40,291 nucleotides of DNA from sequence record NC_047777.1; one strand, 5' to 3'. This DNA comes from Escherichia phage ZG49. The notes beneath the pieces are model-generated. The model made no database searches, was not told the origin of the DNA, and was given only the letters and a program-made list of their open reading frames with translations. A program made the position numbers and the translations under genes. Of the stretch, positions 1-40,291 are shown piece by piece. Numbering within the stretch: position 1 is the first letter of the stretch; each line of letters starts with the position of its first letter.

Positions 1-401
1 CCTAAGGCTTGCACCGATGGAAGGAGGGTGATATTAATCATAATCCCTCCAATACAGATAGTCACCGACCATAGATACAGGAGGTATGTAGCATATGGCA
101 AAGACCAAAGCTGTACTTAAAGCTCTGGCGACCAATCGAGCTACATACAGGTTTCTTGCTGCTGTTCTACTTGCTGCTGGCGTTACTGCTGGAAGTAAGT
201 GGGTCGGGTGGGTCGAGACTCTCGTATGTTCTCTGGTGTCTCAGTGTAATTAACGCAATCATGGTAACGATTCATGAGCGGAAGACCTAAGGTCAGTACG
301 TGGATAAAGACTCACTCTACTGACCTTAGCTACTGTAGTCAAGGACTTTAGGTAACACCTTAATAGAAGCTCACCTAGGGTCATCCTACTTATTGGTCTA
401 T
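1..401. repeat. Left direct terminal repeat, identical to 39891-40291
   Basis: Bases 1-401 read identically to 39891-40291; window begins and ends exactly on the repeat; T7-like genomes carry direct terminal repeats. Confidence 0.8.
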
Positions 402-689: not shown

Positions 690-780
690 CCTACAACCTA
701 GTCCTACAACCTACAGTCCTACAACCTACAGTCCTACAACCTACAGTCCTACAACCTACAGTCCTACAACCTACAGTCTA
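690..780. repeat. Tandem array of about 6 copies of a 15-bp unit (GTCCTACAACCTACA) in the left-end non-coding region
   Basis: Direct reading: a 13-bp partial copy followed by five exact 15-bp copies; no spacers. Confidence 0.8.
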
Positions 781-947
781 ACTAACCTACAGTATCAACC
801 ATAAGACACCAACACCTACGGTCATAGACCCACAGTTAATAGACACAAAGCTATAGACTTAAGGTCTTAAACATGTTAGTCAAAGACTATATCCTATTAC
901 ACCATGGGGCCGACGATAGCTTAATCAATATTATTTAAGATTACCTA

Positions 948-3166: not shown

Positions 3167-5848
3167 ATGAGCGTCATCTCTATTGACAAACACGACTTCT
3201 CTGATGTGTCGAACGCCATTGAGCCGTTTAACCTGCTGGCTGACCACTACGGGCAAGACCTTGCAGTCAAACAGCTTCAGCTTGAGCATGAGGCATATAC
3301 AGAAGGCGAGCGACGTTTCATCAAGAACCTTGAGCGACAGACTGAGCGCGGGGAACTGGCAGACAATCAGGTCGCCAAGCCTTTGATGCAGACTCTGGTC
3401 CCTAAGATTGCGCAAGCCGTCAGGGAGTGGCACGAAGGCCTAGACGGGAAGCTGTCAACCTCGCGTCCTAGCGTAGCGTTCACCATGTTGAGCACTGAAG
3501 AGAAGGCCGTAAAGGACCGCTCTATGCGCATCTCCTGTGAGTCCGCTGCGGTTATCATACTGAAGGTCATACTCTCCAAGCTGGTCAAGCCTGAAGGGAT
3601 ACCGATTACACCGATGTCCTCCGCGATAGGTCGCACACTTGAGGACGAAATCCGCTTCGGTCGCATCCGTGACAAAGAGAAGGAGCACTTCAAGAAGACG
3701 ATAGCTGAGAACCTGAACAAGCGAGTTGGGGCATCCTACAAGAAAGCCTACATGCAAGCGGTCGAGGCGTCCATGCTGGAGCAAGGCCAACTGGAAGATG
3801 CATGGGGGACTTGGAGTCCTACAGAGGCTGTCCACGTTGGCATCAAGATGCTCGAGATTGTCATCCAGTCAACACAACTGGTCGAGCTTAAGCGGTACGG
3901 TGCTGGTAATGCAGCGGCTGACGTAGAGATGGTCCACCTGTCAGACTTCTGGGTCAAGAAGATGGCACAACGAGGATTCAGCCTTGCGGGTATCGCCCCA
4001 GTCTACCAGCCTTGCGTCGTTCCACCTAAGCCGTGGACTGGTGTCGTAGGTGGTGGGTACTGGGCCAAAGGTCGCAGACCGTTACCATTGATTCGCTTAG
4101 GGTCTAAGTCTGCGGTAGCACGTTATGAAGACGTATACATGCCTGAAGTCTATGACGCTGTGAACATCATTCAGAATACACCTTGGAAAGTTAACAAGAA
4201 GGTTCTGGACGTGGTGAACATGGTCGAGAAGTTGAACAACACGCCTATTGATGACATCCCTCAGATGGAACCGCTGAAGCCTGAGGACTATGCTGGTGAG
4301 ACCGAGGAGGAACTCAAGGCATGGAAGAAGGCTGCTGCTGGTATCTATCGCCGCGAGAAGGCCAGACAGTCACGCAGATTATCACTGAGCTTTATCGTTA
4401 ACCAAGCAAACAAGTTCTCTCAGTTCAAGACCATCTGGTTCCCGTACAACATGGATTGGCGTGGTCGTGTCTACGCTGTCCCGATGTTCAACCCTCAGGG
4501 TAACGACATGCAGAAGGGTCTCCTGACGCTGGCAGTCGGCAAGCCTATTGGTGCTGACGGTTTCAAATGGCTGAAGGTCCACGGTGCAAACTGTGCGGGT
4601 GTCGATAAAGTCACCTTCGATGAGCGCATCAAGTGGGTGGAAGACAACCACGAAAACATCATGGCTGCTGCTAAGGCACCGATGGATAGTATTGAGTGGT
4701 GGGGCAAGTTAGACTCTCCGTTCTGTTTCCTCGCGTTCTGCTTCGAGTATGCTGGCGTAATGCACCACGGCCTGTCTTACTCCTGCTCGCTGCCGATAGC
4801 GTTCGATGGGTCCTGCTCTGGTATTCAGCACTTCAGTGCGATGCTTCGTGACCACATCGGTGGACATTCAGTAAACCTGACGCCATCCGGTAAGGTACAA
4901 GACATCTACCGCATTGTGTCTGACCGCATTGAGGAGGAGCTTAAAGTCCTGCTGATTAACGGTACTGACAACGAGATGGTCACTCACGAGGATAAGAAAA
5001 CTGGTGAGATTACCGAACGTATCAAGCTGGGGACACGAGAGCTGGCCCGTCAGTGGCTGACATACGGTATGTCACGCAAGGTCACTAAGCGTTCAGTCAT
5101 GACTCTGGCATACGGGTCAAAAGAGTACGGCTTCGCAGACCAAGTTTACGAGGACATCGTGATGCCAGCGATTGACTCAGGGTCTGGCGCTATGTTCACT
5201 GAACCAAGCCAAGCGTCTCGCTTCATGGCAAAGATGATTTGGGAAGCTGTGAGTGTGACAGTAGTTGCTGCGGTTGACGCGATGAAGTGGCTTCAAGGTG
5301 CTGCCAAGCTGCTGGCTGCTGAGGTGAAGGACAAGAAGACTGGAGAAATCCTGAAGCCTTGCCTTCCGGTACACTGGGTCACACCTGATGGGTTCCCGGT
5401 CTGGCAGGAGTACCGCAAGAAGGATACCACTCGTCTGAACCTGATGTTCTTAGGGTCATTCAATCTTCAGCCTACCGTCAACAGAGGTACGAAGAAAGAG
5501 CTGGACAAGCACAAGCAGGAGTCAGGCATTAGCCCTAACTTCGTCCACTCACAAGATGGTAGCCACCTGCGGAAGACTGTAGTCCACACTCACCGCAAGT
5601 ATGGCGTGATGTCATTCGCAGTGATTCACGATAGCTTCGGGACCATCCCTGCTGACGCTGAGTATCTGTTCCGTGGTGTCCGTGAGACGATGGTCGAGAC
5701 ATACCGCGATAACGATGTGCTGCTTGACTTCTACGAGCAGTTTGAATACCAGCTTCATGAAAGCCAGCGCGACAAGTTGCCTGAGCTTCCGAAGAAAGGT
5801 AAACTGAATATCGAAGACATCTTGTCTTCAGACTTTGCATTCGCTTAA
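3167..5848 (+). CDS. Single-subunit DNA-directed RNA polymerase (gp1-like, 893 aa)
   Basis: Near-colinear similarity to T7 RNAP; C-terminus ...HSQDGSHLRKTVV...HDSFGT...SDFAFA matches the T7 C-terminus. Confidence 0.97.
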   Translation: MSVISIDKHDFSDVSNAIEPFNLLADHYGQDLAVKQLQLEHEAYTEGERRFIKNLERQTERGELADNQVAKPLMQTLVPKIAQAVREWHEGLDGKLSTSRPSVAFTMLSTEEKAVKDRSMRISCESAAVIILKVILSKLVKPEGIPITPMSSAIGRTLEDEIRFGRIRDKEKEHFKKTIAENLNKRVGASYKKAYMQAVEASMLEQGQLEDAWGTWSPTEAVHVGIKMLEIVIQSTQLVELKRYGAGNAAADVEMVHLSDFWVKKMAQRGFSLAGIAPVYQPCVVPPKPWTGVVGGGYWAKGRRPLPLIRLGSKSAVARYEDVYMPEVYDAVNIIQNTPWKVNKKVLDVVNMVEKLNNTPIDDIPQMEPLKPEDYAGETEEELKAWKKAAAGIYRREKARQSRRLSLSFIVNQANKFSQFKTIWFPYNMDWRGRVYAVPMFNPQGNDMQKGLLTLAVGKPIGADGFKWLKVHGANCAGVDKVTFDERIKWVEDNHENIMAAAKAPMDSIEWWGKLDSPFCFLAFCFEYAGVMHHGLSYSCSLPIAFDGSCSGIQHFSAMLRDHIGGHSVNLTPSGKVQDIYRIVSDRIEEELKVLLINGTDNEMVTHEDKKTGEITERIKLGTRELARQWLTYGMSRKVTKRSVMTLAYGSKEYGFADQVYEDIVMPAIDSGSGAMFTEPSQASRFMAKMIWEAVSVTVVAAVDAMKWLQGAAKLLAAEVKDKKTGEILKPCLPVHWVTPDGFPVWQEYRKKDTTRLNLMFLGSFNLQPTVNRGTKKELDKHKQESGISPNFVHSQDGSHLRKTVVHTHRKYGVMSFAVIHDSFGTIPADAEYLFRGVRETMVETYRDNDVLLDFYEQFEYQLHESQRDKLPELPKKGKLNIEDILSSDFAFA

Positions 5849-7867: not shown

Positions 7868-8122
7868 ATGTTTAAGAACTTAATGTTCAATCGTTATACC
7901 AGTACATTCCACCTGTCTCACAACCCATTAGCTTGCATTAAGCGCAACGAGAAGCTGGGCTACTTCGGGAAGGCCGTTAAGCTGTCACCTACAGTCTTCG
8001 CTCTGATTACTCCGGGCAAAGCTGAAGAGGCTCGCCAGAAGCGTGCGACCCACGTACCTGTGGTCTACACTAAGTGGCCTCGAGTTCGTCTGTTCGTTGA
8101 GTTCGTGAAGGAGGTGTTCTGA
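7868..8122 (+). CDS. gp1.6-like hypothetical protein (84 aa)
   Basis: RBS AAGGAGG; position between ligase and gp1.7. Confidence 0.5.
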   Translation: MFKNLMFNRYTSTFHLSHNPLACIKRNEKLGYFGKAVKLSPTVFALITPGKAEEARQKRATHVPVVYTKWPRVRLFVEFVKEVF

Positions 8123-8854
8123 TGGGATGTATAGCTTGCTTAGAGAAACCAGAGGTAACTCCTACAGATGACCAACCTTCCACTGAGTCAATCGACGCTG
8201 TCCGCAAGCCGTCCCACTATCAGGTATTTGACGGAGTGGAGTCCATTGAGATTATCGCTCGGTCCATGACTGTCAGCGAGTTCCGTGGGTTCTGCATGGG
8301 TAACGTCCTGAAGTATCGACTCCGAGCTGGTAAGAAGTCCGAGCTGGCTACTATGGAGAAGGACCTGAACAAAGCGGACTTCTATCAGGAGCTGTTCGAC
8401 CTGAGCTGGGCTACTTCGGGAAGGCCGTTAAGCTGTCACCTACAGTCTTCGCTCTGATTACTCCGGGCAAAGCTGAAGAGGCTCGCCAGAAGCGTGCGAC
8501 CCACGTACCTGTGGTCTACACTAAGTGGCCTCGAGTTCGTCTGTTCGTTGAGTTCGTGAAGGAGGTGTTCTGATGGGATGTATAGCTTGCTTAGAGAAAC
8601 CAGAGGTAACTCCTACAGATGACCAACCTTCCACTGAGTCAATCGACGCTGTCCGCAAGCCGTCCCACTATCAGGTATTTGACGGAGTGGAGTCCATTGA
8701 GATTATCGCTCGGTCCATGACTGTCAGCGAGTTCCGTGGGTTCTGCATGGGTAACGTCCTGAAGTATCGACTCCGAGCTGGTAAGAAGTCCGAGCTGGCT
8801 ACTATGGAGAAGGACCTGAACAAAGCGGACTTCTATCAGGAGCTGTTCGACCTG
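7953..8854. repeat. Tandem duplication B: two identical 451-bp copies (7953-8403, 8404-8854)
   Basis: Direct reading; ORFs 8122-8457 and 8573-8881 share their first 94 aa. Confidence 0.9.
8122..8457 (+). pseudogene. Chimeric gp1.7 copy created by duplication B (native C-terminus replaced by out-of-frame gp1.6 sequence)
   Basis: Identical to 8573-8881 until ...QELFDL, then diverges at the duplication junction. Confidence 0.6.
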
Positions 8855-8881
8855 CACAAAGGTAAGTGTTATGACGTATGA
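8573..8881 (+). CDS. gp1.7-like protein (nucleotide kinase family), 102 aa
   Basis: GCIACLEK...KPEVTPTDDQPS...IARSMTV...KYRLRAGKKSELA...KADFY resembles the T7 gp1.7 C-terminal half (from memory). Confidence 0.65.
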   Translation: MGCIACLEKPEVTPTDDQPSTESIDAVRKPSHYQVFDGVESIEIIARSMTVSEFRGFCMGNVLKYRLRAGKKSELATMEKDLNKADFYQELFDLHKGKCYDV

Positions 8882-9976: not shown

Positions 9977-10426
9977 ATGAGTAGAGGACATCAAGTAGGT
10001 GCTTATCGCTCTGGACTCGAAGCAAAGAACCAAGAGTGGCTTGAGAAGAATGGCGTAAAAGCTGAATACGAAGCATATAAAATAGGCTACGTAGTACCAT
10101 CCAGCGACCACTTCTACACACCAGATTTTATCCTTCCTAACGGTATCATCGTGGAGACCAAAGGTCTCTTCGATAGTGATGACCGTAAGAAGCACCTTCT
10201 GGTACGAGAACAGCACCCTGAGTTAGACATTCGGTTCGTGTTCTCAAGTTCACGCTCCAAGTTATACAAGGGGTCTCCGACCACGTATGGCGCATGGTGC
10301 GAAAAGAACGGCTTTAAGTTTGCCGACAAGTTTATCCCGGTTGAGTGGCTGAGAGAGGTGACTGTACGTCTACCTTCAGGTATTCTCATCCCCAAGAAGA
10401 AAGGAGTTAAGGATATTCGCACCTAA
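9977..10426 (+). CDS. Endonuclease I (gp3-like Holliday junction resolvase, 149 aa from ATG 9977)
   Basis: Strong similarity to T7 gp3 (GAYRSGLE, YTPDF, PNGI.VETKGL..SDDRKKHLL.REQHPELDIR.VFSSSR.KLYKGSPT); track ORF starts earlier at 9920. Confidence 0.85.
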   Translation: MSRGHQVGAYRSGLEAKNQEWLEKNGVKAEYEAYKIGYVVPSSDHFYTPDFILPNGIIVETKGLFDSDDRKKHLLVREQHPELDIRFVFSSSRSKLYKGSPTTYGAWCEKNGFKFADKFIPVEWLREVTVRLPSGILIPKKKGVKDIRT

Positions 10427-11009
10427 AGCGAGACCCTTAAGTTTATGGCTGAAAAATACTCAGTAAGTGAGACAACCATAAGTCGAATCAGGAACAACAA
10501 GAGGTGGAAATAATAATGGGAAGTAAAGTACAATTCATGCCACGCAAGTCAACTGACGCTATCTTCGTTCACTGTTCGGCTACCAAGCCAGAGATGGACA
10601 TCGGGGTAGAGACCATCCGTATGGTGTTCTCAAGTTCACGCTCCAAGTTATACAAGGGGTCTCCGACCACGTATGGCGCATGGTGCGAAAAGAACGGCTT
10701 TAAGTTTGCCGACAAGTTTATCCCGGTTGAGTGGCTGAGAGAGGTGACTGTACGTCTACCTTCAGGTATTCTCATCCCCAAGAAGAAAGGAGTTAAGGAT
10801 ATTCGCACCTAAAGCGAGACCCTTAAGTTTATGGCTGAAAAATACTCAGTAAGTGAGACAACCATAAGTCGAATCAGGAACAACAAGAGGTGGAAATAAT
10901 AATGGGAAGTAAAGTACAATTCATGCCACGCAAGTCAACTGACGCTATCTTCGTTCACTGTTCGGCTACCAAGCCAGAGATGGACATCGGGGTAGAGACC
11001 ATCCGTATG
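10238..11009. repeat. Tandem duplication C: two identical 386-bp copies (10238-10623, 10624-11009)
   Basis: Direct reading; ORF 10504-10812 has the lysozyme N-terminus fused to the endonuclease I C-terminus. Confidence 0.9.
10504..10812 (+). pseudogene. Chimeric ORF: lysozyme N-terminal 40 aa fused to endonuclease I C-terminal 62 aa
   Basis: N-terminus identical to 10890-11360 and C-terminus identical to 9920-10426; switch at the duplication junction. Confidence 0.6.
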
Positions 11010-11585: not shown

Positions 11586-11597
11586 TTCTTCAAAGAC

Positions 11598-11616
11598 TAA
11601 ACTATCACCTTAGGGA
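11598..11616 (+). promoter_or_regulatory. Degenerate phage promoter-like site TAAACTATCACCTTAGGGA upstream of gene 4
   Basis: Two mismatches in the -4/-3 core; position matches T7 phi3.8. Confidence 0.3.
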
Positions 11617-13555: not shown

Positions 13556-13580
13556 AAGGTCATTCACATCGAGTGGCCTT
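13556..13580 (+). promoter_or_regulatory. RNA hairpin (10-bp stem, 5-nt loop); candidate RNase III site (R4.7-like)
   Basis: AAGGUCAUUC / GAGUGGCCUU; same flanking motif as 6183 and 37388. Confidence 0.45.
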
Positions 13581-13608
13581 TATGATTAGACTAAACGGAG
13601 GATTAACC

Positions 13609-15780
13609 ATGTTTGACCTTAAGAGTATCTGGGGTTCTGACATAGAGACCAACGGTCTCCTTGATACAGTCTCCCAGTTTCACTGTGGGGTCCTGATTAA
13701 CGCCGAGTCGAATGAGACCCTTAAGTATGGGGTAGCTCCGATGGTCGGTATCGTCGGTGGCTTCAAAGAGTATGTACAGAAGGTGGAAGAGATTGCCGCA
13801 TCACCTGATGGTATGCTGGTATTCCACAACGGTATCAACTATGACGTACCTGCTATTGACAAGCTGAAACGTCTGTACTTTGGGAAACGTTTCAACTTCC
13901 CGAAACACAAGATGATTGATACCTTGGTGCTGGGCCGCTTGATGTATCCCAACATTAAGTTCTCAGACATGGGAGCAGTGAAAGCTGGTCGTCTGCCACC
14001 TAAGATGATGGGACGCCAGTCTCTTGAGGCTTGGGGCTATCGTCTCGGTGAGATGAAAGGTGAGTACAAACACGATTACGTTGCCAAGTGCAAGGCTGAA
14101 GGTATCGAATATAAGGCTGGGGACGAATGGTTGTTCCCATCTCAGGAGATGCTAGACTATAACGTTCAAGACGTTGTGGTCACACTGGCGTTGTTCAAGA
14201 AGTTCCTGACTGACAAGTATTACTTCCAGTCTGAACAGTTTGCTTTCGACCAGATTTATGCGTTGCGTCTGGAACATGATGCTGCGTGGACCTGTGCGAA
14301 GATGGAACGTAACGGCTATCCGATGAACACCGAGATGGTCGAAGGTTTATATCGTGAACTCACCGTCAAACGTGCAGAGCTGTTGGACAAGCTGCGTTCG
14401 ACTTTCGGTAGCTGGTATGCACCAAAGGGAGGCAAGGAGTTCTTCAAGCACCCACGGACAGGCAAGGACCTTCCGAAGTATCCGCGAGTCGTGTATCCTA
14501 AGGTCGGGTCAGTATTCAAGAAGCCGAAGAACAAAGCTCAACGCTTAGGTCTGGAGCCTTGCGAGTTAGACTCACGAGACACGATGGAAGGAGCACCGTT
14601 CACGCCAATCACTTACGTTGAGTTTAATCCGGGAAGCGGAGACCACTTAGCGAAAGTCTTGATGGAGCGTGGTTGGGAGCCTGTGGACTTCACTGACACT
14701 GGGAAACCTGTAGTCGATGACGAGACGTTAGAACACGTTAAGCTACCAGACGCAGAGGCTCAGGCTTGCGTAGAGCTGGTCCGTGAGTATCTGGTAGTCC
14801 AGAAGCGCATCGGTCAGGCGGCTGAAGGTAAGAACGCATGGTTGAAACTTGTAGGTCCAGACGGACGTATGCACGGTTCAATCAACCCATGCGGTGCAGT
14901 AACAGGACGTGCGACTCATAGTTCACCAAACATGGCTCAGGTCCCTGCTAACGGTGCTCCGTATGGTGAGATTTGCCGTGGTGCTTTCGGTGCAGCTTGG
15001 AACAAGACGGATGGTAAGCCAGACCCTTGGATTCAAGTGGGTGTGGATGCTTCAGGTCTTGAGCTTCGTTGTCTGGGGAACCGAGCAGCTCCGTTTGATG
15101 GTGGTGCCTATGCGAAGACTGTGGTCGAAGGTGACATCCACTGGGCCAACGCAGTAAACGCTGGGTTAGCACCTAATGTCCCACGAGATAAGTTGAACCA
15201 CGACCATGATGCTTTCCGTAACAACGCTAAGACGTTCATCTATGCGTTCCTGTATGGTGCAGGGGCCGCTAAGATTGGACTGATAGTCGGCGGTGGTAAG
15301 AAGGAAGGTTCAGCTCTCATGAAGAAATTCATTGAGGGTACACCAGCCATCAAGGACCTCAGGGAAGCTGTGAGTAAGACGTTAATCTCAGACTCTAAGT
15401 GGGTGGACGGAGAGAACATCGTTAAGTGGAAACGCCGTTGGTTGCGTGGACTTGATGGTCGCCGTATCCACATCCGGTCTCCGCACTCAGCACTGAACGC
15501 CTTACTTCAAGGTGACGGTGCGGTAGTTTGTAAAACGTGGTTCACTTGGCTTGAGAGGAACCTAGAAGCTAAAGGCTACGTGCATGGCTGGGATGGTGAC
15601 TTTGCGATTATGGCTTTTGTCCATGACGAAGTTCAGGTTGCCGCAAGGACTATGGAAATAGCTGAGGACATAGTTAGGGTGGCGCAGTCCACAATGCGAG
15701 AGGTTGGAGAGTTCTACCAGTTCAAGTGTGTGCTTGACACCGAGGGTAAGATAGGACCTACGTGGCGCGAATGTCACTAA
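13609..15780 (+). CDS. DNA polymerase (gp5-like, family A) with thioredoxin-binding loop
   Basis: Colinear similarity to T7 DNAP including the thioredoxin-binding insert (TFGSWY.PKGG.E.F.HPRTGK.LPKYPR...PKVG..FKKPKNKAQR); ATG 13609 after GGAGG. Confidence 0.95.
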   Translation: MFDLKSIWGSDIETNGLLDTVSQFHCGVLINAESNETLKYGVAPMVGIVGGFKEYVQKVEEIAASPDGMLVFHNGINYDVPAIDKLKRLYFGKRFNFPKHKMIDTLVLGRLMYPNIKFSDMGAVKAGRLPPKMMGRQSLEAWGYRLGEMKGEYKHDYVAKCKAEGIEYKAGDEWLFPSQEMLDYNVQDVVVTLALFKKFLTDKYYFQSEQFAFDQIYALRLEHDAAWTCAKMERNGYPMNTEMVEGLYRELTVKRAELLDKLRSTFGSWYAPKGGKEFFKHPRTGKDLPKYPRVVYPKVGSVFKKPKNKAQRLGLEPCELDSRDTMEGAPFTPITYVEFNPGSGDHLAKVLMERGWEPVDFTDTGKPVVDDETLEHVKLPDAEAQACVELVREYLVVQKRIGQAAEGKNAWLKLVGPDGRMHGSINPCGAVTGRATHSSPNMAQVPANGAPYGEICRGAFGAAWNKTDGKPDPWIQVGVDASGLELRCLGNRAAPFDGGAYAKTVVEGDIHWANAVNAGLAPNVPRDKLNHDHDAFRNNAKTFIYAFLYGAGAAKIGLIVGGGKKEGSALMKKFIEGTPAIKDLREAVSKTLISDSKWVDGENIVKWKRRWLRGLDGRRIHIRSPHSALNALLQGDGAVVCKTWFTWLERNLEAKGYVHGWDGDFAIMAFVHDEVQVAARTMEIAEDIVRVAQSTMREVGEFYQFKCVLDTEGKIGPTWRECH

Positions 15781-15789
15781 GGAGATAAG

Positions 15790-16116
15790 ATGGGAGGTGT
15801 AGCAACCTTACGCTTCCATAAGATGCCTACTGGATGTATCGTCTGTGTATCACATCGTCGAAACCATGATGGATACTTTCGGTACACGGTAGGCTCTGCC
15901 CGTAAGCCTGGACGCAAGGCGTTTATGTTCCACCGATGGGTGTGGGAACAGAAGCGTGGGCCTATACCAGATGGCTATGAGATAGACCATTTGTGTTTGA
16001 ATCGTGGGTGCTGTAACGTAGAACATCTACAATGTATTCCAAAGCGTGATCACGTCATCAAGACGAACCGTGAGCGCAAACTTATTAAGAAGGAGAAGAC
16101 TAATGGCTATTACTAA
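15790..16116 (+). CDS. HNH family endonuclease (108 aa)
   Basis: H-N-H type motif region HRWVWE...DHLCLNRGCCNVEHL...H; immediately after DNAP. Confidence 0.75.
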   Translation: MGGVATLRFHKMPTGCIVCVSHRRNHDGYFRYTVGSARKPGRKAFMFHRWVWEQKRGPIPDGYEIDHLCLNRGCCNVEHLQCIPKRDHVIKTNRERKLIKKEKTNGYY

Positions 16117-16292
16117 ACGTATTCGTGTAAGTTTCGACCTGAAGATGGTTGTTAGCTCAAAGAAAGAAGAGACCAGGCCCTGAGTCTGCCCTTGAAATTG
16201 CCATCAAGAAGGCCGTCAAGGAGGAGCTGGTAGATGCCTTTGATGATGACCAGTTCGGCGTGTCCAACCTGCGATTCGAGGTCAAGCAATGA
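16103..16292 (+). pseudogene. gp5.5-like gene interrupted by a +1 frame change (26-aa N-terminal ORF 16103-16183, remainder open in the next frame to 16292)
   Basis: N-terminus MAITKRIRVSFD resembles T7 gp5.5 MAMTKKFKVSFD (from memory); stop after 26 codons; adjacent frame open to the gp5.7 start. Confidence 0.4.
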
Positions 16293-16498
16293 GTGAATAC
16301 TTACGGGTCCTAGCGGCCCTTAAGTCCTGCCCGAAGACCTTCCAGTCTAACTATGTGCGCAATAACGCTGCACTTGTGGCTGAGGCTGCGAGTCGTGGAC
16401 ATCTAAGCTGCCTGTCTATGGATGGGCGTAACAACGGTGCGTGGGAGATTACCGCTGCTGGCACCAAGTTCCTGAACCAACACGGAGGCTGTCTGTGA
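16289..16498 (+). CDS. gp5.7-like protein (69 aa)
   Basis: Same length and position as T7 gp5.7; ATG overlaps upstream stop. Confidence 0.5.
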   Translation: MSEYLRVLAALKSCPKTFQSNYVRNNAALVAEAASRGHLSCLSMDGRNNGAWEITAAGTKFLNQHGGCL

Positions 16499-16947
16499 AG
16501 ATACCTGAAAGTCTGAAAGAGCTGGTCCTTGAAATGGGTGAATTCGATAAGGAGCACCGCAAGTACGGTGAGTTCTACGCATCTTGGTCATTCACCCTGA
16601 CTGAGAAGGACGTTGAGGCCTACGCCGAGTCTCCCGCTGAGGTTTATGAGTGGCGTCCGTTCATCGGACTGACCATCGTAGCTAGCGGTATGTGGGATGA
16701 CGGATACGGCTCAGAGGTAAACGACTGGGACGTATATCGCCAAGTTGAGAAGGAGACCGAAATGTCTTCCAACTTCTGGAGCCTGATGTCACACCTCAAC
16801 TCAGAGGATAATGACATGGCCCATGAGTTCGCCAACAAATGGCTGAAGCCTGAGGTGACTCTCGAACGTATTGAGGAGCCGAAAGTTTCCTTGATGCCAG
16901 CTACGGTAGCTATGGCTACAGGAGGTCTGGACGATGACTTCGAATAA
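16495..16947 (+). CDS. Strongly acidic hypothetical protein (about 150 aa), gp5.9-like position
   Basis: GTG at 16495 after GGAGG overlapping upstream stop; large excess of D/E over K/R. Confidence 0.45.
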   Translation: MKIPESLKELVLEMGEFDKEHRKYGEFYASWSFTLTEKDVEAYAESPAEVYEWRPFIGLTIVASGMWDDGYGSEVNDWDVYRQVEKETEMSSNFWSLMSHLNSEDNDMAHEFANKWLKPEVTLERIEEPKVSLMPATVAMATGGLDDDFE

Positions 16948-17803
16948 GAAGATAGCTCTGGTTCTGGATGGTGACTATCTGGTCTTCTCTTCTATGGCTG
17001 CTGCCGAGGACGAGACAGACTGGGGTGATGACATCTGGACCCTTATCTGCGACCACGCCAAGGCTCGTCGTATCCTTGAGAACACCATCGCTGAAATCGT
17101 TAAGAAGCGCAAGGCGTGGAAAGACGCTAAGATTGTGATGTGCTTCACCGACGATTACAACTGGCGTAAGGACGTTCTGCCAACCTATAAGGCCAACCGT
17201 AAAGGTTCCCGCAAGCCTGTAGGTTACAAGAAGTTCGTAGCCGAAGTGATGGCTGACCCACGGTTCAACAGCTTCCTGCGTCCTACGCTTGAAGGTGATG
17301 ACTGTATGGGTATCATCGGGACCCGACCTCAGATTGTTGACTGTGATCATGCGGTTCTGGTGTCCTGTGACAAGGACTTCAAGACCATCCCGAACTGTGA
17401 GTTCTTCTGGTTAACCACTGGTGAAATCCTGAGTCATACGACTGCTGAGGCAGACTATTGGCACATGGAGCAGACCATCAAGGGTGACACTACAGATGGC
17501 TATGGTGGTATTCCGGGGATGGGTGAGGACACCACTCGTGCGTTCCTTGACGAGCCGTACTACTTCGTGCAGGAGAGCCGTGAGCTTAAGACTGGCAAGA
17601 ACAAAGGCCAGATTAAGACCGAATGGAAGAAGTATCCGAAGCGTGAAGACATGACGCTGTGGGACTGCATGGTTACACTGGCTGCTAAGGCTGGCATGAC
17701 CGAGGAGGAACTTCTGGTCCAAGCTCAGGTCGCTCGTATTTGTCGAGCATCTGACTATGACCCTAAGTCCAAGGAGGTCATCCTATGGACACCACCCATG
17801 TAA
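16934..17803 (+). CDS. 5'-3' exonuclease (gp6-like)
   Basis: 289 aa versus T7 gp6 300 aa; conserved position; RBS AGGAGG. Confidence 0.85.
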   Translation: MTSNKKIALVLDGDYLVFSSMAAAEDETDWGDDIWTLICDHAKARRILENTIAEIVKKRKAWKDAKIVMCFTDDYNWRKDVLPTYKANRKGSRKPVGYKKFVAEVMADPRFNSFLRPTLEGDDCMGIIGTRPQIVDCDHAVLVSCDKDFKTIPNCEFFWLTTGEILSHTTAEADYWHMEQTIKGDTTDGYGGIPGMGEDTTRAFLDEPYYFVQESRELKTGKNKGQIKTEWKKYPKREDMTLWDCMVTLAAKAGMTEEELLVQAQVARICRASDYDPKSKEVILWTPPM

Positions 17804-17877
17804 TTTACTGGGTAGGACTTCTTGCCCTTTACTGCATGTACAAGTGGTTCGGGTCGAACAACCGCCCTAAACACTGA
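17785..17877 (+). CDS. Small hydrophobic peptide (30 aa), gp6.3-like
   Basis: ATG 17785 with RBS AAGGAGG 7 nt upstream; hydrophobic; overlaps gp6 3' end. Confidence 0.35.
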   Translation: MDTTHVIYWVGLLALYCMYKWFGSNNRPKH

Positions 17878-17931
17878 GTCTAGCCGATAGTCATATCCTA
17901 TCAATCCAACAGTCATCCATAGGTGAAACAC

Positions 17932-17950
17932 TAAACTATCACTATAGGGA
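17932..17950 (+). promoter_or_regulatory. Phage RNAP promoter TAAACTATCACTATAGGGA (phi6.5-like)
   Basis: Exact consensus; intergenic. Confidence 0.7.
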
Positions 17951-33576: not shown

Positions 33577-35637
33577 ATGTCCACGATTACACAATTCCCT
33601 TCAGGAAACACTCAGTACAGGATTGAGTTCGACTACCTAGCCAGAACGTTTGTTGTTGTTACGCTGGTGAATAGCTCTAACCCTACCCTGAACCGTGTAC
33701 TGGAAGTTGGTCGAGATTACCGATTCCTTAACCCAACGATGATTGAGATGTTGGTTGACCAATCAGGTTTCGACATCGTTCGTATTCACCGTCAGACTGG
33801 AACTGACTTAGTGGTAGACTTCAGGAATGGCTCAGTGTTGACAGCTAGTGACCTGACCAATTCAGAGCTTCAGGCTATCCATATTGCAGAAGAAGGTCGA
33901 GACCAAACGGTTGACTTAGCGAAGGAATATGCCGATGCTGCTGGTAGCTCTGCTGGCAACGCTAAGGATAGCGAGGACGAAGCACGCCGAATCGCTGCGA
34001 GTATCAGGGAAGCTGGTCTAATTGGCTATATTACCCGTCGCTCCTTCGAGAAAGGCTACAACGTTACAACATGGAGCGAGGTCCTGCTATGGGAAGAGGA
34101 TGGTGATTATTACCGCTGGGATGGTACGCTTCCAAAGAACGTTCCTGCTGGTTCAACTCCTGAAACTTCCGGTGGGATTGGATTAGGTGCGTGGGTTAGT
34201 GTTGGTGATGCTGCTTTAAGAAGTCAGATTTCAAACCCGGAAGGGGCAATACTCTACCCGGAATTGCAGATGGCAAGATGGCGTGATGAGGGTGATGTTC
34301 GAGGCTGGGGTGCTAAAGGGGATGGTGTAACAGATAGTACGGAGAATATAGCTGCTTCACTAAATTCTCAAAAAGCTGTCGTAGCATCAGAAGGTGTATT
34401 CTCTAGTTCTGGTATTAATAGTAATTACTGTAACTTAGACGGTAGAGGCAGTGGTGTACTAAGTCACCGTTCAAGTACAGGTAACTACTTAGTATTTAAC
34501 AATCTACGCTCAGGTCGCTTAAGTAATATTACGGTAGAAAGTAATAAGGCGACCGATACCACTCAAGGGCAGCAGGTATCTCTTGCTGGTGGCAGTGATG
34601 TTACTATAAGTGATGTTAATTTCTCAAACGTTAAGGGCGCTGGTTTCAGTTTAATCACATACCCTAATGATGCACCCTCTGATGGGCTTATGATTAAAGG
34701 CATTCGAGGTAGCTACTCCGGCTATGCTACTAATAAGGCGGCTGGATGCATACTTGCTGATTCCTCAGTTAACTCCCTCATAAATAACGTCATTGCTAAG
34801 AACTACCCTCAGTTCGGGGCTGTAGAACTGAAAGGTACAGCCAGTTATAACATAGTCAGCAATGTTATAGGGGCAGACTGCCAGCATGTAACTTACAACG
34901 GTACAGAAGGGTCAATAGCTCCCTCTAACAACCTTATCAATGGGGTAGTGGCTAATAATCCTAAATATGCAGCGGTTGTTGCAGGCAAAGGTAGTACCAA
35001 CTTAATCTCCGATGTGCTTGTAGATTTCTCAACCTCTGATGCTAGGCAGGCTCATGGTGTTACAGTAGAAGGTTCTGATAACGTCATAAATAATGTGCTT
35101 ATGTCAGGGTGTGATGGTACTAACTCTTTAGGGCAAGCTCAGACTGCTACAATTGCGCGCTTTATAGATACGGCTAATAACAACTATGCGTCTGTATTTC
35201 CTAGCTACAGTGCTACAGGTGTTATTACTTTCGAATCAGGTTCTACCCGTAACTTCGTAGAGGTAAAGCATCCGGGAAGGAGAAACGACCTTCTCAGTGC
35301 TACTGGTACTATTGAAGGTAAAGTTACTATTGACGGCACTAGTAATAGCAACGTAGTGCACGCTCCTGCATTAGGACAGTACATAGGCAGTATGTCCGGT
35401 AGGTTCGAATGGCGGATTAAGTCCATGTCACTTCCGTCAGGCGTTCTTACCTCGGCTGATAAGTACAGAATGCTTGGGGATGGTGCTGTGTCATTAGCTG
35501 TAGGTGGGGGTACTTCTTCTCAAGTTCGCCTATTTACTTCTGATGGTACTTATCGGACAGTATCACTCACCAACGGTAACGTGCGTCTTCCTACCAGTAG
35601 CACAGGTTATTTGCAGTTAGGTTCTAGCTCCCTCTAA
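33577..35637 (+). CDS. Tailspike (gp17-like), N-terminal 686-aa fragment truncated by tandem duplication D
   Basis: N-terminal 150 aa resemble the T7 gp17 adaptor domain (EFDYLARTFVVVTL, DYRF, VDFRNGSVL.ASDL, IAEEGRD); then a beta-helix-like region (WGAKGDGVTD); reading frame breaks at the duplication junction at 35625. Confidence 0.8.
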   Translation: MSTITQFPSGNTQYRIEFDYLARTFVVVTLVNSSNPTLNRVLEVGRDYRFLNPTMIEMLVDQSGFDIVRIHRQTGTDLVVDFRNGSVLTASDLTNSELQAIHIAEEGRDQTVDLAKEYADAAGSSAGNAKDSEDEARRIAASIREAGLIGYITRRSFEKGYNVTTWSEVLLWEEDGDYYRWDGTLPKNVPAGSTPETSGGIGLGAWVSVGDAALRSQISNPEGAILYPELQMARWRDEGDVRGWGAKGDGVTDSTENIAASLNSQKAVVASEGVFSSSGINSNYCNLDGRGSGVLSHRSSTGNYLVFNNLRSGRLSNITVESNKATDTTQGQQVSLAGGSDVTISDVNFSNVKGAGFSLITYPNDAPSDGLMIKGIRGSYSGYATNKAAGCILADSSVNSLINNVIAKNYPQFGAVELKGTASYNIVSNVIGADCQHVTYNGTEGSIAPSNNLINGVVANNPKYAAVVAGKGSTNLISDVLVDFSTSDARQAHGVTVEGSDNVINNVLMSGCDGTNSLGQAQTATIARFIDTANNNYASVFPSYSATGVITFESGSTRNFVEVKHPGRRNDLLSATGTIEGKVTIDGTSNSNVVHAPALGQYIGSMSGRFEWRIKSMSLPSGVLTSADKYRMLGDGAVSLAVGGGTSSQVRLFTSDGTYRTVSLTNGNVRLPTSSTGYLQLGSSSL

Positions 35638-36333
35638 CAACCTTATCAATGGGGTAGTGGCTAATAATCCTAAATATGCAGCGGTTGTTGCAGGCAAAGG
35701 TAGTACCAACTTAATCTCCGATGTGCTTGTAGATTTCTCAACCTCTGATGCTAGGCAGGCTCATGGTGTTACAGTAGAAGGTTCTGATAACGTCATAAAT
35801 AATGTGCTTATGTCAGGGTGTGATGGTACTAACTCTTTAGGGCAAGCTCAGACTGCTACAATTGCGCGCTTTATAGATACGGCTAATAACAACTATGCGT
35901 CTGTATTTCCTAGCTACAGTGCTACAGGTGTTATTACTTTCGAATCAGGTTCTACCCGTAACTTCGTAGAGGTAAAGCATCCGGGAAGGAGAAACGACCT
36001 TCTCAGTGCTACTGGTACTATTGAAGGTAAAGTTACTATTGACGGCACTAGTAATAGCAACGTAGTGCACGCTCCTGCATTAGGACAGTACATAGGCAGT
36101 ATGTCCGGTAGGTTCGAATGGCGGATTAAGTCCATGTCACTTCCGTCAGGCGTTCTTACCTCGGCTGATAAGTACAGAATGCTTGGGGATGGTGCTGTGT
36201 CATTAGCTGTAGGTGGGGGTACTTCTTCTCAAGTTCGCCTATTTACTTCTGATGGTACTTATCGGACAGTATCACTCACCAACGGTAACGTGCGTCTTCC
36301 TACCAGTAGCACAGGTTATTTGCAGTTAGGTTC
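34916..36333. repeat. Tandem duplication D: two identical 709-bp copies (34916-35624, 35625-36333) inside the tailspike gene
   Basis: Direct reading; ORFs 33577-35637 and 35657-36817 share about 230 identical residues. Confidence 0.9.
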
Positions 36334-39890: not shown

Positions 39891-40291
39891 CCTAAGGCTT
39901 GCACCGATGGAAGGAGGGTGATATTAATCATAATCCCTCCAATACAGATAGTCACCGACCATAGATACAGGAGGTATGTAGCATATGGCAAAGACCAAAG
40001 CTGTACTTAAAGCTCTGGCGACCAATCGAGCTACATACAGGTTTCTTGCTGCTGTTCTACTTGCTGCTGGCGTTACTGCTGGAAGTAAGTGGGTCGGGTG
40101 GGTCGAGACTCTCGTATGTTCTCTGGTGTCTCAGTGTAATTAACGCAATCATGGTAACGATTCATGAGCGGAAGACCTAAGGTCAGTACGTGGATAAAGA
40201 CTCACTCTACTGACCTTAGCTACTGTAGTCAAGGACTTTAGGTAACACCTTAATAGAAGCTCACCTAGGGTCATCCTACTTATTGGTCTAT
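39891..40291. repeat. Right direct terminal repeat, identical to 1-401
   Basis: Direct comparison of both ends. Confidence 0.8.

What the first reader, a model, noticed from the sequence alone, without database searches (positions are those of the whole stretch)
16495..16947. Strongly acidic 150-aa protein in the gp5.9 position
In T7 this position holds the small acidic RecBCD inhibitor gp5.9. Here a much larger but similarly acidic protein is encoded, a candidate DNA-mimic anti-defence or anti-nuclease protein without recognisable motifs.
Basis: inference. Interest (0 to 1): 0.4.

Follow-up and report, generated by a model that had tools for sequence, protein, structure and literature searches.

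The report
Orphan acidic accessory protein replacing gp5.9
A real, selected 150-residue acidic gene of unknown function sits where phage T7 keeps its RecBCD inhibitor gp5.9; it is unrelated to gp5.9, belongs to a small uncharacterised phage family with no known fold, and is a reasonable but untested candidate host or defence inhibitor.

Summary
The window is a K1F-like (Kayfunavirus) T7 relative. The ORF at 16495-16947 (GTG start, GGAGG 6 nt upstream) encodes 150 aa with pI 4.33 and net charge -20. It lies between the gp5.7 homologue and the gene 6 exonuclease, which is the gp5.9 slot of T7.

It is a genuine gene: dN/dS is 0.14-0.33, relatives start with ATG at the same position, and it matches PHROG 4382 (function unknown) at E 8e-48. 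It is not a gp5.9 homologue.

- The family is tiny: 25 clusters among 1.84 billion representatives, all apparently phage.
- Its acidity is conserved: pI 4.15-4.83 even at about 25% identity.
- It is accessory: about a fifth of close relatives carry it. K1F has an empty slot and TM1 holds a 42-aa CxxC ORF.
- It never co-occurs with gp5.9 (0 of 352 genomes).

Best reading: a stoichiometric acidic inhibitor of a host DNA-binding or defence protein. RecBCD is one unproven candidate. Function remains untested.

The parts
16484..16488 (+). Shine-Dalgarno GGAGG, 6 nt upstream of the GTG start. K1F uses the same signal for gene 6.
   Evidence: Sequence read; alignment with K1F.
16495..16947 (+). CDS of the 150-aa acidic protein (GTG start, TAA stop). 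Member of PHROG 4382, function unknown.
   Evidence: E 7.7e-48, residues 1-130 on profile positions 6-129 of 130; dN/dS 0.14-0.33.
16495..16878 (+). Residues 1-128: confidently predicted compact alpha/beta core (H5-14, E16-23, E26-34, H37-43, H47-56, E59-68, E72-86, H89-100, H107-116, E120-125). It carries the family motifs E-H-R-K-Y (20-24), G-M-W-x-D (65-69), G72, E74 and S-H-L-N-S-E-D-N (99-106).
   Evidence: 10-residue block pLDDT 85-95 through residue 120, 72 for 121-130; conservation.
16879..16944 (+). Residues 129-150: disordered tail ending GGLDDDFE. It is present only in the Kayfunavirus-type subfamily. Codons 143-148 double as the Shine-Dalgarno (AGGAGG, 16920-16925) and ATG (16934) of gene 6.
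   Evidence: pLDDT below 50; alignments; sequence.
16289..16498 (+). Upstream gp5.7-like gene (69 aa). Its stop overlaps the target's start, which implies translational coupling.
   Evidence: phrog_1334, E 7e-39; T7 gp5.7 sequence.
16934..17803 (+). Downstream gene 6 5'-3' exonuclease. Its start lies 14 nt inside the target's 3' end.
   Evidence: PF02739; phrog_107, E 1e-78.
16497..16503 (+). GAAGATA, the left copy of a 7-bp direct repeat bracketing the 451-bp cassette. The right copy is at 16948-16954. The target starts M-K-I and gp6 has K-K-I at the matching place.
   Evidence: That this marks the recombination junction is inference.
16948..16954 (+). GAAGATA, the right copy of the 7-bp direct repeat.
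11592..11616 (+). Nearest upstream phage-RNA-polymerase promoter-like element (family consensus CTAAACTATCACTATAGG). It heads the unit helicase - polymerase - HNH - 5.5 - 5.7 - target - exonuclease.
   Evidence: families D6 and D9. Promoter function is inferred from T7 biology.
17923..17948 (+). Next promoter-like element downstream of gene 6, in the position of T7 phi6.5. It marks the end of the unit that contains the target.

Best explanation
The gene is an accessory middle (class II) gene of a K1F-like phage. It is co-transcribed and translationally coupled with the DNA-metabolism genes. Its product is a small, stably folded, very acidic protein from an orphan phage-only family.

The most likely mode of action is stoichiometric. 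The protein binds a host DNA- or nucleic-acid-binding protein, such as a defence or repair nuclease or another takeover target, through its negatively charged surface and blocks it. This is the general strategy used by gp5.9, Ocr and similar proteins, here achieved with an unrelated fold.

Shown:
- It is a real gene under purifying selection.
- It lies in the gp5.9 slot.
- Acidity is conserved across the family.
- Its distribution is accessory.
- It has no detectable homology or fold similarity to anything characterised.

Inferred:
- That it is an inhibitor at all.
- That charge is the functional principle.
- Any specific target. RecBCD is one candidate, at roughly 0.15 probability.
For: 1. 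Slot. The gene lies between the gp5.7 and gene 6 homologues, where T7 and T3 carry gp5.9. It holds the same slot in Przondovirus IME321, Aarhusvirus Mysterion, K42PH8 and a metagenomic T7-like contig.

2. The slot is polymorphic.
- It is empty in K1F and 101136BS1, where 5.7 abuts or overlaps gene 6.
- TM1 holds a 42-aa CxxC...CxxC ORF there.
- IME321 holds the family member plus a 58-aa basic ORF.
- Only 53 of about 242 close relatives (>=80% nt identity) cover >=80% of the 5.7-target-6 query.
Such present/absent cassettes in lytic phages are typically host-interaction or counter-defence genes (established pattern; e.g. bioRxiv 10.1101/2023.04.06.535777).

3. Conserved charge. Thirty-four diverse members down to about 25% identity all have pI 4.15-4.83 and net charge -10 to -19.

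4. Mutual exclusivity with gp5.9. A concatenated query found 352 records and 352 places, with none holding both genes. The window has no gp5.9 homologue.

5. Purifying selection. dN/dS is 0.14-0.33.

6. Narrow, phage-only distribution. There are 25 clusters among 1.84 billion representatives. Every member whose source was inspected comes from a lytic enterobacterial phage record or a phage-like contig, always among early or middle DNA- and nucleotide-metabolism genes and with no partner conserved across all of them.

7. No catalytic family. There is no match in Pfam, NCBIfam, PDB sequences or PDB folds.
Against: - There is no experimental or structural evidence of any binding partner.
- Acidity alone is weak evidence. 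The scaffold, portal and helicase proteins in this window are also strongly negative.
- The most conserved residues are glycines, aromatics and a basic/polar set (E20, H21, R22, K23, E74, H100). That pattern fits a defined ligand or active site at least as well as a diffuse charged surface.
- Exclusivity with gp5.9 is confounded by phylogeny and by both genes occupying the same locus.
- In Mooglevirus the homologue sits between nrdD and nrdG, a context that points to nucleotide metabolism rather than defence.
Confidence: 0.4

Rival explanations
1. Specific functional analogue of gp5.9. The protein binds the DNA-end channel of RecBCD as a DNA mimic. This would protect phage DNA ends and recombination intermediates made by the adjacent gene 6 exonuclease.
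For: - It occupies the same slot and the same transcription unit as gp5.9 and overlaps gene 6 in the same way.
- It never co-occurs with gp5.9, and the window has no gp5.9.
- Its acidity is similar.
- RecBCD inhibitors often sit beside a phage's own exonuclease or recombinase, as with lambda gam-bet-exo and P22 abc (established knowledge; eLife 2022, PMC9836394).
Against: - There is no sequence or profile similarity.
- The predicted alpha/beta monomer differs from the helical gp5.9 dimer, and it matches no RecBCD-inhibitor chain in the PDB.
- K1F and most close relatives manage with an empty slot.
- Family members in Mooglevirus, Proteus phage J3S and large myovirus-like contigs are not next to recombination genes.
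Confidence: 0.15
2. Accessory subunit of the phage's own replication or recombination machinery. The protein would dock on the phage DNA polymerase or exonuclease through an acidic, Phe-terminated C-terminal tail, as the gp2.5 and gp4 tails do in T7.
For: - The disordered tail ends DDDFE. Relatives end DDDF, DDGF or DDEF.
- The window's SSB ends GGDYDF and its helicase ends WEDTDF.
- The gene lies between the polymerase and the exonuclease and is translationally coupled to the latter.
- Elsewhere the family lies near DNA polymerase, RNase H, DnaB, ribonucleotide reductase, thymidylate synthase and DHFR genes.
Against: - The tail is missing from the Przondovirus, Aarhusvirus, Mooglevirus and most metagenomic members.
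- Some Kayfunavirus alleles end DDGC or RDE.
- Codons 143-148 are the Shine-Dalgarno and ATG of gene 6, so their conservation is explained by dual coding.
- The tail has only three consecutive acidic residues.
- A core replisome part would not be absent from four fifths of close relatives.
Confidence: 0.15
3. A small ligand- or metal-binding protein, or an enzyme, linked to nucleotide metabolism. It would use the conserved E20-H21-R22-K23 hairpin together with E74 and H100.
For: - The best-conserved non-glycine positions are K23 (95%), H100 (86%), E20, H21, R22 and E74.
- The Moogle homologue is inserted between the anaerobic ribonucleotide reductase and its activase.
- Other members lie near ribonucleotide reductase, thymidylate synthase and DHFR genes.
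Against: - It matches no enzyme or cofactor-binding family by sequence or fold.
- The H-R-K motif is degenerate in one subfamily (FLKH, HIKH, HPED).
- The alignment of H100 between the two C-terminal subfamilies is uncertain.
- T7-like phages have no NrdD/NrdG.
- No gene neighbour is conserved across contexts.
Confidence: 0.15
4. A functionless passenger: a cassette that spreads by recombination at a hot spot and gives the phage no benefit.
For: - Its presence is patchy.
- A 7-bp direct repeat brackets the cassette.
- An HNH homing endonuclease lies 380 bp upstream.
Against: - dN/dS of 0.14-0.33 and an intact frame in all five alleles compared.
- The ORF is retained in several phage groups (Kayfunavirus, Przondovirus, Aarhusvirus, Mooglevirus, Proteus phage J3S, large myovirus-like contigs) down to about 25% identity with conserved length and charge.
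- The fold is confidently predicted.
Confidence: 0.05

Closest known systems
T7/T3 gp5.9 (RecBCD inhibitor, DNA mimic; PDB complexes described in eLife 2022, PMC9836394)
   Same: - Same genomic slot between genes 5.7 and 6.
- Same class II transcription unit.
- Its 3' end overlaps the gene 6 start.
- Small and acidic (pI 4.08 against 4.33).
- Dispensable, accessory character.
- Never found in the same genome.
   Different: - 52 aa against 150 aa.
- No sequence or profile similarity.
- gp5.9 is a helical dimer, whereas this protein is predicted to be an alpha/beta domain with a five-stranded sheet plus a disordered tail.
- No structural match in PDB searches.
PHROG 4382 and its GenBank members, all annotated 'hypothetical protein' (e.g. 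Klebsiella phage IME321 YP_009806234.1, Dickeya phage Mysterion YP_009812061.1, Citrobacter phage Moogle AIW03751.1)
   Same: True homologues. The PHROG match is E 7.7e-48 over the whole core. Identity is 45%, 41% and 28%. They share the motifs and the acidity. Independent BFVD models superpose on this one (TM 0.55-0.75).
   Different: These members are 127-130 aa and lack the 22-residue tail. The Moogle copy lies between nrdD and nrdG rather than beside an exonuclease. None has an assigned function.
DNA-mimic inhibitor proteins as a functional class (Ocr, ArdA, Ugi, Arn, Gam, Acr DNA mimics)
   Same: Small size, 20-25% acidic residues, pI near 4, phage-encoded, accessory and non-enzymatic by all searches.
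Acidic Phe-terminated C-terminal tails of T7 gp2.5 (SSB) and gp4 (helicase-primase), which bind the polymerase (established T7 biochemistry)
   Same: A disordered C-terminus ending in acidic residues plus Phe (DDDFE here, DDDF or DDGF in relatives). This resembles the window's own SSB (…DYDF) and helicase (…DTDF) tails.
   Different: The tail is much shorter and less acidic and is not universal in the family. Some alleles end in Cys. The sequence is dual-coded with the gene 6 ribosome-binding site and start codon.

Membership tests
gp5.9 family (T7-type RecBCD inhibitor) | Detectable sequence homology to T7/T3 gp5.9 | tested here: not met
   tblastn of gp5.9 against the window gave a best E of 0.09, on the opposite strand near 4150-4200. 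blastp against the target gave E 3.1. hhalign of family profile A3 against gp5.9 gave probability 0.1%.
gp5.9 family (T7-type RecBCD inhibitor) | A helical protein of about 50 residues that forms a DNA-mimicking dimer | tested here: not met
   The target is 150 aa with a predicted alpha/beta fold of five strands and five helices. It has no PDB structural neighbour.
gp5.9 family (T7-type RecBCD inhibitor) | Location between genes 5.7 and 6 of a T7-like genome | tested here: met
gp5.9 family (T7-type RecBCD inhibitor) | Binds and inhibits RecBCD | not testable with these tools
   This needs a biochemical or genetic assay, or complex prediction.
PHROG 4382 (uncharacterised phage protein family) | Full-length match to the family profile | tested here: met
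   E 7.7e-48, 163 bits, residues 1-130 on profile positions 6-129 of 130.
PHROG 4382 (uncharacterised phage protein family) | Shared motifs and fold with other members | tested here: met
   The motifs EHRKY, GMWxD..G.E and SHLN(S/A)E(D/E)N are conserved. BFVD models of members align with TM 0.55-0.75 at E 5e-14 to 5e-10.
DNA-mimic proteins (functional class) | Small and strongly acidic (pI about 3-5, about 20% or more D+E) | tested here: met
   pI 4.33 and 22% D+E here. The family ranges over pI 4.15-4.83.
DNA-mimic proteins (functional class) | Surface carboxylates arranged like the phosphates of B-DNA | not testable with these tools
Only secondary structure and pLDDT were returned.
DNA-mimic proteins (functional class) | Competes with DNA for a DNA-binding protein | not testable with these tools
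   Requires experiment.
Ocr / ArdA / Ugi / Gam and other solved inhibitor folds | Fold or sequence similarity to a solved representative | tested here: not met
T7-type polymerase-binding acidic C-terminal tail | A disordered, highly acidic tail with a C-terminal aromatic residue, conserved across orthologues | tested here: inconclusive
   The tail is disordered and ends DDDFE, DDDF or DDGF in many Kayfunavirus alleles. Others end DDGC or RDE, the tail is absent outside that subfamily, and it is dual-coded with the gene 6 start region.

The most novel reading that the evidence does not exclude
The family is a previously unrecognised, new-fold inhibitor of RecBCD or of another host DNA-end-processing or defence nuclease. 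It would have replaced gp5.9 in the same slot in subsets of Kayfunavirus, Przondovirus and Aarhusvirus, and would also be used by Mooglevirus and large myovirus-like phages. That would make it an independent evolutionary solution to the same problem, carried by phages now used therapeutically against E. coli, Salmonella and Klebsiella.
Probability: 0.15. Interest if true: 0.6.

Novelty: new variant of a known kind. Interest (0 to 1): 0.35.

Why it matters
If the protein is a counter-defence or host-takeover inhibitor, it would add a new fold to the small set of phage acidic inhibitor proteins. It would also explain a presence/absence polymorphism in Kayfunavirus and Przondovirus phages, which are widely isolated for therapy against E. 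coli, Salmonella and Klebsiella. Carriage of the cassette could then predict host range on strains with the cognate defence, or sensitivity to systems that guard the inhibited target. If it has no such role, it remains one of many conserved phage 'hypothetical proteins'. Its interest would then be limited to a well-defined orphan family with a confident, unmatched predicted fold.

Tried and rejected
- gp5.9 homology: rejected by tblastn/blastp and hhalign.
- Pfam, NCBIfam and PHROG function labels: there is no informative hit. The only match is PHROG 4382, 'unknown function'. PF14718 SLT_L at E 0.41 is noise.
- PDB by sequence and by profile: nothing.
- Fold searches:
  - Foldseek against the PDB gave a best E of 0.37.
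  - BFVD returned only uncharacterised family members.
  - The afdb50 library was unavailable.
- Word-index protein searches, with the single sequence and with the profile: all hits are unnamed or 'hypothetical'.
- Exhaustive HMM search: 25 clusters. The 1148-aa hit P0050 is a repetitive surface-protein-like sequence with a marginal E of 4e-5 and was treated as spurious.
- Literature: searches on gp5.9/K1F, Kayfunavirus anti-defence, Przondovirus/RecBCD/DNA mimic, phrog_4382 and accessory-gene screens found nothing on this family.
- Motif searches in the supplements of two accessory-gene screens: no occurrence.
- Looking for a conserved gene partner across contexts: none across all of them.
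- Rfam scan of the window: no hit.
- A T7/T3-type promoter pattern gave no match. The phage's own promoter consensus was recovered from repeats instead.
- GenBank labels on homologues such as 'baseplate hub assembly protein' (SH-Kp 152410) or 'nonfunctional dGTP triphosphohydrolase inhibitor' (ESh23) have no support and were disregarded.

Full report
**What the window is.** Megablast of 15700-17900 finds 244 phage records. The best is Enterobacteria phage IME177 (95% identity, full coverage), and most of the rest are Kayfunavirus (K1F-like T7 relatives). All large ORFs are on the + strand. A promoter-like element with consensus CTAAACTATCACTATAGG recurs 11 times. The target lies in the unit that starts at 11592 and ends before the element at 17923. 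That unit reads helicase, DNA polymerase (13573-15780), HNH endonuclease (15790-16116), a gp5.5-like remnant (16149-16292), a gp5.7-like gene (16289-16498), the target, and the gene 6 exonuclease (16934-17803).

**The observation.** The ORF runs from GTG 16495 to TAA 16945-16947. GGAGG lies at 16484-16488, and the GTG overlaps the TGA of gene 5.7. Four GenBank relatives annotate the same ORF with ATG at the same position. The 150-aa product has pI 4.33, 33 acidic and 13 basic residues (net -20). These are the most extreme values among plausible genes in the window. In T7 the gene between 5.7 and 6 is 5.9, and gp5.9 is 52 aa with pI 4.08.

**It is a real gene.** Pairwise dN/dS among five Kayfunavirus alleles is 0.14-0.33, and 0.09-0.28 over the folded core. 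By tblastn, 167 phage records encode a relative:
- Kayfunavirus, 83-95% identity.
- Przondovirus (Klebsiella), about 45% identity, 127 aa.
- Aarhusvirus (Dickeya phage Mysterion), 41%.
- Mooglevirus (Citrobacter and Shigella myoviruses), about 28%.
- Proteus phage J3S, 33%.

**What family it is.** The only profile match is PHROG 4382, 'unknown function' (E 7.7e-48, full length). Pfam, NCBIfam and PDB sequence or profile searches give nothing. An exhaustive HMM search of 1.84 billion cluster representatives finds only 25 clusters, all proteins of about 100-150 aa apart from a few shorter fragments and one spurious repetitive hit. Word-index searches return only unnamed or 'hypothetical' proteins.

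Members share an N-terminal module with the motifs E-H-R-K-Y-S-E-F-Y and G-M-W-S-D-x-x-G-x-E. They split into two C-terminal types. One type carries F-W-x-L-M-S-H-L-N-S-E-D-N-x-M-A-x-E-F, as here. The other carries a P-E-x-x-I-P-A-H segment.

**Acidity is a family trait.** Thirty-four diverse members, many at only 25-35% identity to the target, all have pI 4.15-4.83 and net charge -10 to -19. Positionally, though, the best-conserved residues are glycines (G58, G65, G72), aromatics and a polar set (E20, H21, R22, K23, E74, H100). This leaves room for a specific ligand or active site.

**The slot is a polymorphic accessory site.**
- K1F, the type phage of the genus, has gene 5.7 overlapping gene 6 directly, with neither gp5.9 nor this gene. 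Phage 101136BS1 is the same.
- Phage TM1 (MT808983) carries a 42-aa CxxC...CxxC ORF there.
- Klebsiella phage IME321 carries the family member plus a 58-aa basic ORF.
- With the 5.7-target-6 segment as query, 242 records match at >=80% identity. Only 53 cover >=80% of it. The rest cover about 70%, which is the two flanking genes alone.
- K1F uses the same GGAGG-N6-start signal for gene 6 that this phage uses for the target. A 7-bp repeat, GAAGATA, brackets the 451-bp cassette (16497-16503 and 16948-16954). This is compatible with gain or loss by short-homology recombination, but that is inference.

**Exclusivity with gp5.9.** gp5.9 homologues occur in 187 records (T7, T3, Berlin-like and others), always between 5.7 and 6. 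A concatenated target+gp5.9 query hits 352 records in 352 places, with none containing both. This fits functional substitution. It is equally expected from lineage structure and from both genes competing for one locus.

**Context elsewhere.**
- The same slot in a metagenomic T7-like contig.
- Between nrdD and nrdG in Moogle.
- Downstream of the DNA polymerase in Proteus phage J3S.
- In large myovirus-like contigs, directly after a DUF5405 gene and near Endonuclease_NS and GmrSD_N-like genes.
- Near ribonucleotide reductase, thymidylate synthase/DHFR or RNase H genes in other contigs.

The common denominator is the early or middle DNA- and nucleotide-metabolism block of lytic phages of Enterobacterales. 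No partner gene is conserved across these contexts.

**The tail.** The disordered tail ends GGLDDDFE. Relatives end DDDF, DDGF, DDEF, DDGC or RDE. The window's SSB and helicase end DYDF and DTDF, the T7-type polymerase-binding signature (established T7 biochemistry). That makes a replisome-docking role conceivable. Three points argue against it. Codons 143-148 are also the AGGAGG (16920-16925) and ATG (16934) of gene 6. The tail is absent from most of the family. And the gene itself is dispensable in most relatives.

**Interpretation.** The evidence establishes a genuine, selected accessory gene from an orphan, phage-restricted, uniformly acidic family with an unmatched predicted fold, sitting in the slot that holds gp5.9 in T7. 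The most economical mechanism is a stoichiometric inhibitor that uses its negative surface to occupy the nucleic-acid site of a host protein (confidence about 0.4). RecBCD is one specific candidate (about 0.15). Rivals are a replisome or recombination accessory factor (0.15), a small ligand-binding protein or enzyme tied to nucleotide metabolism (0.15), and a functionless passenger (0.05). None can be settled without experiments or complex prediction. Literature and supplement searches found no study of this family.

**Verdict.** Interest is moderate to low (0.35): it is a clean candidate, but one among many uncharacterised acidic phage accessory proteins.

Noticed in passing
window 34916-35624 = 35625-36333; 7953-8403 = 8404-8854; 1519-1903 = 1904-2289; about 10228-10613 and 10614-11000: There are four tandem duplications. 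Three are exact (709, 451 and 385 bp) and the fourth (about 386 bp) is 99% identical. They duplicate parts of genes: two nucleotide-kinase-like ORFs at 8122-8457 and 8573-8881, and two phrog_11084 ORFs at 1310-1834 and 2058-2219. They could be real duplications or assembly artefacts.
   Followed up: partly
window 1-401 and 39891-40291: An exact 401-bp direct terminal repeat, as expected for a complete T7-like genome, or a circularly permuted assembly overlap.
   Followed up: partly
window 15790-16292: An HNH_3 homing endonuclease (108 aa, PF13392, E 2e-18) lies between the DNA polymerase and gene 5.5. The gp5.5-like ORF is only 47 aa and matches only the C-terminal half of phrog_1452. Many relatives lack the HNH gene and align only from about 16087 onward. 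The insertion therefore appears to have truncated gp5.5.
   Followed up: partly
L011 (Escherichia phage TM1, MT808983) 507-635: In the same 5.7/6 slot, TM1 has an unannotated 42-aa ORF (MSLKGLFASRLKCKKCGQHPMLEGYAGSSYWWCLKCNKEVKE) with two CxxC pairs, resembling a zinc ribbon. It is a third occupant of this variable locus.
   Followed up: no
L001 (Klebsiella phage IME321) 2871-3047: A 58-aa basic ORF (pI 9.4) lies between the family member and the exonuclease. It is unrelated to gp5.9 and has no family match.
   Followed up: no
window 700-793: Five tandem copies of a 15-bp unit (AGTCCTACAACCTAC) near the left end, reminiscent of the repeat arrays next to T7-like terminal repeats (family D8).
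   Followed up: no
window 3068, 6148, 7812, 9153, 11592, 17923, 20768, 21755, 26145, 33501, 39775: Eleven copies of a phage-promoter-like element with consensus CTAAACTATCACTATAGG. It is distinct from the T7 and T3 consensus downstream of the CACTATAGG core.
   Followed up: partly
L008 1911-2593; L010 4732-5411; L018 3668-4351: In three large myovirus-like metagenomic contigs, the family member always directly follows a DUF5405 (PF17399) gene. Each lies within a block that also holds an Endonuclease_NS gene and a GmrSD_N-like gene. This may be a local association worth testing.
   Followed up: no
GenBank records MT350292.1 and OR786095.1: Two Kayfunavirus-like genomes about 90-95% identical to this window are deposited as 'Enterococcus phage EFA-1' and 'Staphylococcus phage MBBL139'. 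The stated Gram-positive hosts are implausible for this genus and suggest contamination or mislabelling.
   Followed up: no
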